This document shows, piece after piece, positions 34,401 to 34,580 of a stretch of 64,000 bases of DNA (its first letter is position 1; the number at the start of each line of letters is the position of its first letter). The notes beneath the pieces were generated by a model, which did not search any database, had not been told where the DNA came from, and saw only the letters and a program-made list of their open reading frames with translations. The stretch is from sequence record PV469800.1, one strand, 5' to 3'. The position numbers were made by a program, and so were the translations under genes. The stretch comes from Escherichia phage HMD-P10.

Positions 34401-34580
34401 TTTTTCATTTCAGGGTTGTGCAGGTAGATTTCTGTAGAGAAATCTGTAGAGAGAATTTTAAACTCCAAAGAGAAAATTCATTTTCAAACTGTGCAGATAA
34501 TCTCCAAAGAGCTTTTTCATTTTCAAAACGTGCAGACCCCGCTCAGGTTGGGCAAGAAAAATCATTTTAGAATTGTGCAG
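34401..34580. repeat. four direct repeats of about 20 bp (TTTTCATTTTCAAAnnGTGCAG)
   Basis: copies at 34401-34423, 34477-34496, 34514-34536, 34562-34580 in a non-coding gap. Confidence 0.7.

What the first reader, a model, noticed from the sequence alone, without database searches (positions are those of the whole stretch)
34401..34580. Four direct repeats upstream of the small-gene array
TTTTCATTTTCAAAnnGTGCAG-like repeats occur at 34401, 34477, 34514 and 34562, spaced 35-75 bp apart in a 460-bp non-coding gap just before the first array promoter. Spaced direct repeats of this kind are typical of iterons or transcription-factor binding arrays.
Basis: seen in the sequence. Interest (0 to 1): 0.45.

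Follow-up and report, generated by a model that had tools for sequence, protein, structure and literature searches.

The report
Conserved four-repeat DNA array, Felix O1-like phage
Four same-direction copies of a 19-base two-part motif lie in a silent gap just ahead of the early-gene block of a Felix O1-type phage; they are kept in every relative examined, so they are very probably docking sites for an unidentified DNA-binding protein, but its job (switching early genes, starting replication, or something else) is still open.

Summary
TCATTT-N7-GTGCAG occurs exactly four times, all on the + strand, at 34405, 34478, 34517 and 34562. It occurs nowhere else in the ~89-kb genome.

The window is a Felixounavirus, 97% identical to phage vB_EcoM_D4. 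The repeats sit between the terminator of a macro-domain gene and the first sigma-70 promoter of a ~6.2-kb array of small early genes. That array runs to the right physical end of the genome.

Three to five copies, in the same order and orientation and at the same syntenic spot, are present in Felixounavirus, Mooglevirus, Suspvirus, Kolesnikvirus and a more distant contig. The neighbouring protein is only 37-44% identical in the two most distant of these.

The array is not:
- coding
- a structured RNA
- a set of promoters
- the terminal repeat

The pattern of conservation fits duplex-DNA recognition by a protein: two invariant half-sites one helical turn apart, preceded by an A-tract or T-tract.

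Best reading (0.4): a protein-binding array that controls or insulates the terminal early module. Main rival (0.25): iterons of a replication origin. No initiator gene, regular spacing or skew signal supports that rival. The binder is unknown. This is a new member of a known kind, of moderate interest.

The parts
33546..34331 (+). Upstream gene: macro-domain protein (annotated 'phosphatase' in relatives), the last gene of the long rIIA-rIIB operon
   Evidence: ORF list. Pfam Macro E=7.5e-7 and phrog_335 E=7e-111. D4 annotation. It is always the left neighbour of the repeats.
34361..34402 (+). Intrinsic terminator hairpin of the upstream operon; its T-run (34401-34405) runs into repeat 1
   Evidence: Terminator scan: 17 pairs, tail TTTCATTTCA. 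Annotated as a rho-independent terminator in phages ASO1B and XTG1.
34405..34423 (+). Repeat 1, TCATTTCAGGGTTGTGCAG. Its long form runs to 34437 and is shared with repeat 4.
   Evidence: the repeat finder family D2, 33 nt, 79% identical to repeat 4.
34426..34452 (+). Inter-repeat segment: perfect 8-bp palindrome AGATTTCT-GTAG-AGAAATCT (34426-34445) and two TCTGTAGAGA copies (34431, 34443)
   Evidence: Sequence. k-mer enrichment: TCTGTAG 3 copies against 0.10 expected. The palindrome is not conserved outside close relatives.
34478..34496 (+). Repeat 2, TCATTTTCAAACTGTGCAG, preceded by CTCCAAAGAG-AAAAT
   Evidence: the repeat finder family D1, 39-nt unit.
34517..34535 (+). Repeat 3, TCATTTTCAAAACGTGCAG, preceded by CTCCAAAGAG-CTTTT
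34562..34580 (+). Repeat 4, TCATTTTAGAATTGTGCAG, preceded by GTTGGGCAAG-AAAAA. This is the copy most similar to those of the Erwinia phages.
   Evidence: The BLAST match of window 34477-34579 to Erwinia phages at 73% identity is the only part of the gap that aligns.
34581..34599 (+). G-rich tandem GTAGGTGGG x2 directly after repeat 4; other lineages have a C-rich tract here
   Evidence: the repeat finder D10. Relatives.
34720..34760 (.). A+T-rich stretch (about 78-88% A+T) immediately upstream of the promoter. It resembles an UP element and would be the only candidate unwinding element.
   Evidence: 40-bp A+T profile.
34761..34789 (+). First sigma-70-type promoter of the small-gene array, TTGACT-17-TAATAT
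   Evidence: Promoter scan. The equivalent site is annotated as a promoter in ASO1B. It is present in all lineages.
34851..35231 (+). First gene of the array in this phage (126 aa, phrog_4495, function unknown). Relatives have other small genes inserted before it.
30227..30245 (+). Solitary 1-mismatch copy, TTATTTGTATTTTGTGCAG, right after the rIIB terminator and overlapping a TATAAT promoter. It may or may not belong to the system.
   Evidence: It sits at the same relative place in relatives.

Best explanation
The four repeats are a cis-acting element read as double-stranded DNA. They form an array of same-orientation, non-palindromic sites. Each site has a W4-5 tract, then TCATTTY, six variable bases, then GTGCA(G/T). 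A sequence-specific protein reads each site through two contacts about one helical turn apart plus a narrow-groove A/T tract.

Occupied together, the sites would form a nucleoprotein complex in the transcriptionally silent island between the terminator of the rII-macro operon and the first early promoter. That spot is the inner border of the ~7-kb terminal early-gene module.

The most likely role is to control or insulate that module. It could set or shut off the first early promoter, block read-through from the upstream operon, or both.

Shown:
- the repeats exist and are unique in the genome
- they are under selection
- they are neither coding nor a structured RNA
- they are not the genome terminus

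Inferred:
- that a protein binds them
- whether that protein is phage-encoded or a host factor
- that the outcome is transcriptional
For: Uniqueness:
- Four exact copies occur within 176 bp, and there is no other exact copy in the window or in the rest of the genome.

Conservation:
- 31 of the 32 IMG/VR stretches that match a two-copy pattern are Ounavirinae loci, from contigs of about 51-94 kb.
- Six relatives picked only by flank homology all carry 3-4 exact copies.
- Copies keep the same order, strand and position in Felixounavirus, Mooglevirus, Suspvirus, Kolesnikvirus and a distant contig, L020.
- The adjacent macro protein is only 44% and 37% identical in the two most distant lineages, and the rest of the gap does not align.

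Position-by-position profile of 40 distinct copies:
- The 11 positions used to collect the copies (TCATTT and GTGCA) are essentially fixed: 38 of 40 copies are exact, and retrieval allowed at most one mismatch.
- Position 18 is always G or T.
- Positions -4 to -1 are always A or T, mostly as AAAA or TTTT runs. That equivalence makes sense for duplex DNA shape, not for RNA or protein.

Location:
- The array is always downstream of the macro-gene terminator and roughly 190-240 bp upstream of the first strong promoter (my measurements on the sequences; promoter scans).

Alternatives removed:
- No Rfam hit.
- Fold z-scores of -0.41 and -0.21.
- Repeat phases modulo 3 differ between lineages, and no ORF is shared.
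- No conserved promoter lies within or reads into the repeats.
Against: - No binder is identified. The ten neighbouring genes have no Pfam domain apart from Macro. The only annotated regulator in the genome is a Cro/XRE-type HTH_3 protein about 38 kb away, and that type usually binds palindromes.
- The motif is absent from the other ~14 promoters of the array, so it cannot be the general regulator of the module.
- The last copy is 180 bp from the -35 hexamer, which is far for a classical activator or repressor.
- Spacings of 36-77 bp are not kept in helical phase between lineages.
- The left half of the motif resembles the ordinary terminator tail of this phage, TTTT(C/T)ATTT. Part of the similarity between copies could therefore reflect descent from a duplicated terminator tail.
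Confidence: 0.4

Rival explanations
1. Iterons of the phage replication origin. An initiator (phage or host) binds the four sites, bends or wraps the DNA and opens a nearby A+T-rich stretch. The adjacent strong promoter provides transcriptional activation.
For: - There are four non-palindromic ~20-bp direct repeats in one orientation, unique in the genome, in a long non-coding region.
- An A+T-rich stretch (88% at its peak) and a strong promoter lie within 200 bp.
- The order repeats-promoter-gene is that of iteron plasmids, and four iterons are the lambda ori number (established knowledge).
- In the Erwinia lineage every copy contains CTATGCACA or TTATGCACG, 8 of 9 matches to the DnaA box TT(A/T)TNCACA.
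Against: - No Rep-like or O-like initiator lies next to the repeats, and none is among the products annotated in the closest relative. The first downstream gene differs between lineages.
- Spacing is irregular, 36-77 bp and 148 bp in L020, rather than contiguous ~22-bp units.
- Cumulative GC skew has no inflection at 34.4 kb. Its minimum is at about 4 kb, near the divergent DNA-polymerase intergenic region. Skew here tracks gene orientation, however.
- The A+T-rich stretch is 140 bp from the last repeat and doubles as the promoter's upstream element.
- Felix-type copies match the DnaA box at only about 6-7 of 9 positions by hand alignment, and none matches within one mismatch.
Confidence: 0.25
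2. A polar barrier at the inner edge of the terminal early module, analogous to the injection stop signal (iss) of T5. Protein bound to the oriented sites would transiently halt DNA entry, or a fork or polymerase, after the first ~7.5 kb have come in from the right end. The small early genes would then act before the rest of the genome is exposed.
For: - By homology to the experimentally determined 608-bp terminal repeat of UAB_Phi87 (PMC4837284), the repeat maps to window 41525-42097. In D4 the gap lies 7.1-7.5 kb, about 8% of the genome, from the right end.
- The intervening genes are all small, each with its own host-type promoter, and are transcribed toward the end. This parallels dmp, A1 and A2 in the T5 first-step-transfer DNA, whose non-coding, repeat-rich stop signal follows a terminator at its inner edge (bioRxiv 10.1101/866236).
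- All copies share one orientation, as polar barriers do.
Against: - No two-step transfer was found reported for these phages in the papers read here.
- The terminal repeat is 0.6 kb and does not contain the module, unlike the 10-kb repeat of T5.
- There is no sequence similarity to the T5 stop-signal region.
- No Pfam or PHROG match suggesting A1 or A2 was found among the first nine array genes.
- Which end enters first is unknown.
Confidence: 0.07
3. The functional product is made from the minus strand. It would be either a ~250-nt leftward non-coding RNA carrying four CUGCAC-N7-AAAUGA sites, or the 50-aa ORF 34610-34458 with LHxxKM repeats.
For: - The window has a leftward TTGACT-17-TAGCCT promoter candidate at 34648-34620 and an ATG ORF at 34458-34610.
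- Minus-strand ORFs are annotated over the repeats in Mordin and Panisse.
- The Erwinia lineage has a good leftward TTGACC-18-TATACT promoter to the right of the repeats.
Against: - Repeat phases are [1,2,2,2], [1,1,0,0], [1,2,0,0] and [1,1,2,1] in different lineages, so no single frame is kept. The predicted peptides differ in start, end and sequence.
- The leftward promoter is not found in the Moogle-type, Susp-type or other Felix-type sequences.
- There is no stable or conserved fold and no Rfam family.
- AAAA and UUUU are interchangeable in front of the core.
- No intrinsic terminator exists for the minus strand.
Confidence: 0.06
4. A relic without a function of its own: serial duplications of the terminator's 3' arm, its T-tail and the following bases, kept only by chance or by recombination between copies.
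For: - The motif's left half equals the usual terminator tail in this phage (sites at 22191, 30224, 32016 and 47841).
- The purine-rich 10-mer in front of each copy resembles the 3' arm of the terminator stem.
- A solitary copy follows the rIIB terminator.
Against: - Neutral duplicates would not keep 11 of 19 positions invariant in 3-5 copies across lineages whose neighbouring protein is 37-44% identical and whose spacers are unalignable.
- Copies preceded by AAAA, which have no terminator-like T-run, keep the core equally well.
Confidence: 0.07

Closest known systems
Iteron arrays of replication origins (lambda ori with four O-protein sites; pPS10, F, P1 and pSC101 origins)
   Same: Three to five direct repeats of about 20 bp, in one orientation, unique in the replicon, in a non-coding stretch, with an A+T-rich region and an outward promoter beside them. 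Each site is bipartite, as are sites read by two-domain Rep monomers.
   Different: No initiator gene was found beside the array or among the annotated products of the closest relative. The spacers are long and irregular (36-77 bp) rather than regular contiguous units. The downstream gene is not conserved. Neither skew nor any experiment supports origin activity.
Injection stop signal (iss) region of phage T5 and relatives
   Same: A conserved, non-coding, repeat-bearing region following a terminator at the inner boundary of a terminal block of small, host-promoter-driven genes, about 8% of the genome from one end. Conservation of the non-coding element exceeds that of neighbouring genes (bioRxiv 10.1101/866236).
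   Different: The T5 region is about 1 kb long, full of inverted repeats, palindromes and paired DnaA boxes, and lies inside a 10-kb terminal repeat. Here there are only four simple direct repeats, no sequence similarity, a 0.6-kb terminal repeat that excludes the module, and no known two-step transfer.
Upstream operator or activator site arrays of phage early regions (for example lambda OR/OL triplets, phi29 p4 sites)
   Same: Several copies of one site clustered next to an early promoter, confined to one locus of the genome.
   Different: Those sites are palindromic or paired, and they overlap or closely flank the promoter. These are asymmetric, all in the same orientation, 180-360 bp upstream, and their regulator is unknown.
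57-bp promoter/stem-loop direct repeats between Felix O1 genes 15-16 and 19-20 (Whichard et al. 2010, PMC3185647)
   Same: Repeated non-coding elements in the same early small-gene region of the same phage group.
   Different: Those are the promoter-plus-hairpin cassettes that precede individual array genes (window example at 35238-35294). The four repeats studied here are shorter, have a different sequence, lie upstream of the whole array and are not mentioned in that paper.

Membership tests
Iteron-type replication origin | Three or more direct repeats of 17-22 bp in one orientation, clustered and unique in the replicon | tested here: met
   Four exact cores within 176 bp and none elsewhere. 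Relatives have 3-5 copies.
Iteron-type replication origin | Cognate initiator gene encoded next to the iterons, or at least in the genome | tested here: not met
   Neighbouring genes have no Pfam domain except Macro. The full D4 annotation lists a primase/helicase, a polymerase and a ligase but no initiator. The downstream gene varies between lineages. Many proteins remain hypothetical, so absence is not proven.
Iteron-type replication origin | Regular spacing of repeats, typically contiguous units near 22 bp or in helical phase | tested here: not met
   Spacings are 73/39/45, 75/41/45, 77/39/45, 37/37/39 and 36/148/38 bp in different lineages.
Iteron-type replication origin | Adjacent A+T-rich unwinding element and host-factor (DnaA/IHF) sites | tested here: inconclusive
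   An A+T-rich stretch (88% at its peak) lies at 34720-34760, but it is 140 bp from repeat 4 and is the promoter's upstream element. DnaA-like boxes at 8 of 9 occur inside the repeats only in the Erwinia lineage.
Iteron-type replication origin | Origin activity, or a strand-composition switch at the site | tested here: inconclusive
   There is no GC-skew inflection at 34.4 kb. Extremes are at about 4 kb and about 40 kb, where gene orientation flips. Activity itself cannot be tested with these tools.
Transcription-factor binding array (operator or upstream activating sites) | Sites positioned at or near the regulated promoter | tested here: inconclusive
   Repeat 4 ends 180 bp before the -35 of TTGACT-17-TAATAT. 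By my measurements on the sequences, the distance from the last repeat to the promoter is about 190-240 bp in all lineages.
Transcription-factor binding array (operator or upstream activating sites) | The same site at other co-regulated promoters | tested here: not met
   No copy occurs at any of the other array promoters. The only other near-match is at 30227, after the rIIB terminator.
Transcription-factor binding array (operator or upstream activating sites) | An identified cognate regulator that binds the site | not testable with these tools
   The only candidate seen is a 99-aa HTH_3 protein in D4. Nothing links it to the motif.
T5-type injection stop signal | Non-coding repeat region at the inner border of the terminal first-entering early module | tested here: inconclusive
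   The position relative to the end is similar, 7.1-7.5 kb from the right end (T5 layout). Which end enters first is unknown.
T5-type injection stop signal | Located inside a long terminal repeat, with inverted repeats and paired DnaA boxes, together with A1 and A2 genes | tested here: not met
   The terminal repeat is ~0.6 kb and lies 7 kb away. There is no motif similarity to T5. Felix-type cores have no DnaA box within one mismatch. The first nine array genes have no informative family match.
Genome terminus / packaging (pac or terminal repeat) site | Coincides with or abuts the physical DNA ends | tested here: not met
   The UAB_Phi87 terminal repeat (PMC4837284, supplementary Fig. S1) maps to window 41525-42097, not to the gap. 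D4 has it at record positions 9-583, with a second match in the same record that I take to be the right-end copy.
Protein-coding internal repeat (small ORF) | One reading frame conserved through the repeats in relatives | tested here: not met
   Repeat phases differ between lineages, and the peptides are not conserved.
Structured non-coding RNA | A known family, or folding that is better than chance and conserved | tested here: not met
   There are no meaningful Rfam matches; the best E-value is 0.3, far below gathering score. Fold z-scores are -0.41 and -0.21.

The most novel reading that the evidence does not exclude
The oriented four-site array marks where a Felix O1-type genome pauses during entry or is otherwise functionally partitioned. 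On this reading these myoviruses deliver or expose a ~7.5-kb right-terminal 'pre-early' module first, in a T5-like two-step manner, using a different and much simpler stop element bound by a host or virion protein.
Probability: 0.06. Interest if true: 0.8.

Novelty: new member of a known kind. Interest (0 to 1): 0.42.

Why it matters
Felix O1 and its relatives are classic typing and biocontrol phages. Even so, the genome paper states that it is not known how their transcription is timed (PMC3185647), and I found no origin of replication described for them.

This array is the most strongly conserved non-coding element I found at the head of their early-gene module. It is not annotated in the curated records I inspected, and the motif strings are absent from the searchable literature.

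It gives a short, well-defined probe (34400-34600) with which to fish for the protein that controls the early programme, replication start or DNA entry. It also marks a sequence that engineers of therapeutic Felix-type phages should not delete by accident.

Tried and rejected
Readings tested and rejected:
- **Terminal repeat or pac site.** Rejected. The experimentally defined repeat of UAB_Phi87 maps 7 kb downstream.
- **Small protein on the minus strand.** Rejected by frame inconsistency across lineages.
- **Structured RNA or a known RNA family.** Rejected.
- **Sigma-70 promoters formed by the repeats.** Hexamer pairings exist in single lineages, for example TTGCCA-17-TAAAAT on the minus strand in Erwinia phages and TTTTCA-17-TAGATT at repeat 1. 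They are not conserved.
- **Similarity to the T5 stop signal.** None.

Wider searches that found nothing more:
- **Host chromosomal counterpart.** A two-copy pattern scan of 185,579 species genomes gave 17 unrelated tandem repeats in metagenome-assembled genomes, none annotated as an enterobacterium.
- **More distant viral relatives.** A relaxed three-copy pattern found only coding repeats and unrelated tandem arrays, including a probable giant-virus contig encoding an mRNA-capping-enzyme-like protein.
- **Contig L012.** It carries two 50-bp tandem units with the same core, upstream of probable terminase and portal genes of an unrelated phage. I judged this a chance match created by tandem duplication.

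Host-factor sites:
- **By hand, from remembered consensus sequences.** I compared the motif with sites for IHF, Fis, CRP, sigma-54, Cra, PurR, LexA, MetR, Tus/Ter, the MarA/Rob marbox, EcoKI and Chi. None fits. These comparisons are leads, not tests. There are no exact Chi sites in the window.
- **DnaA boxes.** They fit only the Erwinia variant.

Binder and literature:
- **Neighbouring genes as the binder.** No informative domains.
- **Literature on Felix O1 transcription maps, origins or this motif.** Nothing found.

Full report
**What the window is.** The region 34000-35300 is 97% identical to Escherichia phage vB_EcoM_D4 and 90-96% identical to well over a hundred Felix O1-like phages of Escherichia and Salmonella. 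The window is therefore a piece of a Felixounavirus genome of about 89 kb. Anchoring against D4 shows that the window covers D4 positions ~46.8 kb to the right end and then 1 to ~22.6 kb.

**The observation.** Reading the sequence confirms four similar stretches at the stated places.
- A better description is a two-part core, TCATTT-N7-GTGCAG. It is exact at 34405, 34478, 34517 and 34562, always on the + strand.
- Allowing one mismatch, the window has 5 matches against 0.41 expected from shuffles, and no shuffle reached 5.
- The fifth match is a solitary site at 30227.
- The part of the genome missing from the window has no exact copy.
- Start-to-start spacings are 73, 39 and 45 bp.

**Surroundings.**
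- Upstream is a 261-aa macro-domain protein (33546-34331; Pfam Macro, phrog_335 'phosphatase'). It is the last gene of a long rightward block that includes rIIA and rIIB.
- A 17-pair terminator hairpin at 34361-34402 ends the block, and its T-run runs into repeat 1.
- After repeat 4 come a G-rich tandem (GTAGGTGGG x2), an A-rich segment, a stretch peaking at 88% A+T, and the promoter TTGACT-17-TAATAT at 34761-34789.
- That promoter opens an array of about 15 small genes of unknown function. Most of them are preceded by a promoter-plus-hairpin cassette.
- Curated GenBank records annotate only the terminator and the promoter in this gap.

**Where the physical genome ends are.** Bardina et al. 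determined a 608-bp direct terminal repeat for the relative UAB_Phi87 by Bal31 digestion and run-off sequencing (PMC4837284; sequence in its supplementary figure).
- That sequence maps to window 41525-42097 at 83% identity. It lies inside a 1.65-kb non-coding region.
- In D4 it lies at record positions 9-583, with a second match in the same record that I take to be the right-end copy. The gap is at 81.9-82.35 kb of 89.4 kb.
- So the repeats are not the terminus. They mark the inner border of a ~7-kb right-terminal module of small genes that are transcribed toward the end.

**Conservation.**
- A scan of IMG/VR for two neighbouring cores returned 32 stretches. Thirty-one are Ounavirinae loci, from contigs of about 51-94 kb.
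- To avoid circularity I also fetched six relatives chosen only by flank homology: ESh22, S.Kent 1-2-1, 3HA14, EP1, SB18 and finno. All carry three or four exact cores.
- The array is found in Felixounavirus, Mooglevirus (Mordin), Suspvirus (EP1), Kolesnikvirus (Erwinia phage Panisse and SB18, where the core ends in GTGCAT) and a more distant 88-kb contig, L020.
- It is always on the same strand, directly after the macro gene and ahead of the first early promoter.
- The macro protein itself is only 44% (Erwinia lineage) and 37% (L020) identical to the window's.
- In BLAST, only window 34477-34579 of the gap aligns to the Erwinia phages.
- Spacings vary: 73-77/39-41/45, 37/37/39 and 36/148/38. 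Copy number is 3 to 5.

**Profile of 40 distinct copies from eleven lineages.**
- The 11 positions used to collect the copies (TCATTT and GTGCA) are essentially fixed: 38 of 40 copies are exact, and retrieval allowed at most one mismatch.
- Position 18 is always G or T.
- Positions -4 to -1 are always A or T, mostly as AAAA or TTTT runs.
- A purine-rich 10-mer lies further upstream.

**What it is not.**
- *Not coding.* The 50-aa minus-strand ORF (34458-34610) and the ORFs annotated over the repeats in Mordin and Panisse give unrelated peptides. The repeats fall in different phases modulo 3 in different lineages.
- *Not a known or structured RNA.* There is no meaningful Rfam match, and both strands fold no better than shuffles (z = -0.41 and -0.21).
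- *Not promoters.* Hexamer pairings that can be drawn through the repeats are lineage-specific. A leftward promoter candidate in the window (TTGACT-17-TAGCCT, 34648-34620) is not conserved.
- *Not a host-type array.* The two-copy pattern found only unrelated tandem repeats in 185,579 species genomes, none annotated as an enterobacterium.
- A relaxed three-copy scan of viral contigs found no further relatives.

**Most likely mechanism.** The conservation pattern points to recognition of duplex DNA by a protein. Two short invariant blocks have centres about one helical turn apart. The spacer between them is free to vary. An A-tract or a T-tract is accepted equally in front. All of the remaining sequence between copies drifts freely.

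The array sits in a transcriptionally silent island between a strong terminator and a strong promoter, at the border of the early module. I therefore commit to a nucleoprotein complex that controls or insulates the start of that module (confidence 0.4). Binding, the identity of the protein and the transcriptional outcome are all inferred.

Points against this reading:
- The motif is not at the other array promoters.
- The last copy is 180 bp from the -35 hexamer.
- No candidate regulator lies nearby. The only annotated regulator in the genome is a Cro/XRE-type HTH_3 protein far away.

**Rivals.**
- *Replication-origin iterons (0.25).* The layout resembles lambda and plasmid origins, and the Erwinia copies each hold an 8-of-9 DnaA box. 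Against it, no initiator gene was found, spacing is irregular, the downstream gene is not conserved, and GC skew has no inflection here. The skew minimum is near the divergent DNA-polymerase intergenic region.
- *T5-like injection stop or polar barrier (0.07).* The position, about 8% from an end, behind a terminator and bordering a block of host-promoter genes, parallels the T5 map and Davison's description (bioRxiv 10.1101/866236). There is no sequence similarity, no long terminal repeat, and no evidence of two-step entry.
- *A minus-strand RNA or peptide (0.06), or a functionless relic of duplicated terminator tails (0.07).* Both are disfavoured. The left half of the motif does equal the usual terminator tail of this phage, TTTT(C/T)ATTT, which may reveal the evolutionary origin of the unit. 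It cannot explain retention across lineages with 37-44% protein identity next door.

**Comparison with known systems, and novelty.** The array works like an iteron or operator-type site cluster. It fails defining tests for iteron origins (initiator, spacing) and for the T5 stop signal (context, DnaA boxes). It cannot yet be filed under any named family.

It differs from the 57-bp promoter/hairpin repeats that Whichard et al. listed for Felix O1 (PMC3185647). The motif strings are absent from the searchable literature. I rate it a new member of a known kind, namely a clustered direct-repeat protein-binding element in a phage control region. Interest is moderate, about 0.4: it is a clean handle on the unknown temporal control, or origin, of a much-used phage group.

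Noticed in passing
window 41040-42690 (terminal repeat homologue 41525-42097): A 1.65-kb non-coding region holds the single assembled copy of the ~0.6-kb direct terminal repeat. 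Its left edge has three TTAACA-containing repeats (TTCTTAACA-like) on the + strand. Its right half is packed with the reverse-orientation motif TGTTAA(GA), 12 copies per 300 bp. The surrounding sequence is full of CTTAAAAG and CTATAAAG-type short repeats.
   Followed up: partly
window 35238-35294, and similar units before later array genes (e.g. 35619, 36228, 37479, 38276): Each small early gene is preceded by a cassette in which a GGGGCTTA...TAAGCCCC hairpin sits between TTTACA and TAAAGT hexamers. These correspond to the 57-bp direct repeats reported for Felix O1. From my own recollection, they resemble the promoter-early-stem-loop cassettes of T4-type hyperplastic regions.
   Followed up: no
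window 30200-30260: A solitary 1-mismatch copy of the motif (TTATTTGTATTTTGTGCAG at 30227) directly follows the rIIB terminator. Its GTGCAG lies in the spacer of a TATAAT promoter for the next gene. It is at the same relative place in relatives.
   Followed up: partly
window 22191, 30224, 32016, 34402 (+) and 47841 (-): Intrinsic terminators of this phage share the tail TTTT(C/T)ATTT after a GC-rich hairpin. This is the same string as the left half of the repeat motif.
   Followed up: partly
window 34337-34452 and 34581-34599: Secondary short repeats lie inside the gap. TCTGTAG occurs 3 times against 0.10 expected, and TGTAG occurs 6 times. There is a perfect 8-bp palindrome at 34426-34445. 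GTAGGTGGG x2 after repeat 4 matches Chi at 6 of 8 positions. Moogle-type and Erwinia-type relatives have a C-rich tract at that position instead.
   Followed up: partly
window 34620-34648 (minus strand): A leftward promoter candidate, TTGACT-17-TAGCCT, sits back-to-back with the rightward promoter region. It is not conserved in other lineages, although Erwinia phages have their own leftward TTGACC-18-TATACT.
   Followed up: yes
L020 about 600-760 (read on the minus strand); contig IMGVR_UViG_3300045988_063805: In the most distant relative, the repeats are followed at once by a cluster of eight same-orientation TTAACA motifs, including TTATTAACA and TTTTTAACA. This recalls the motif family of the terminal repeat. 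The contig ends 66 bp after the next gene, so the link to its genome end could not be checked.
   Followed up: partly
L012 6254-6321 (minus strand): An unrelated 10-kb viral contig has two 50-bp tandem units containing TCATTTTAACATAGTGCAG. They lie just upstream of a promoter and of probable small-terminase, large-terminase and portal genes (assigned by size and order only). This is probably a chance match.
   Followed up: partly
L004 2502-2640, L019, L081 (Erwinia-lineage phages): Every repeat copy in this lineage contains CTATGCACA or TTATGCACG on the minus strand, one mismatch from the DnaA-box consensus TT(A/T)TNCACA. No Felix-type copy matches within one mismatch.
   Followed up: yes
L005 840-1240 (Salmonella phage SP116) versus window 34809: Many relatives carry one or two extra small genes (+285 or +487 bp) inserted between the first promoter and the gene that comes first in this window. 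The repeat block and the promoter are unchanged.
   Followed up: yes
window about 4650-4900 (D4 51461-51698; L056 2462-2699): A 240-bp very A+T-rich divergent intergenic region lies between the DNA polymerase gene and the primase/helicase block. It coincides with the cumulative GC-skew minimum and carries CTTAAAAG-type repeats. It is an alternative place to look for the origin.
   Followed up: no
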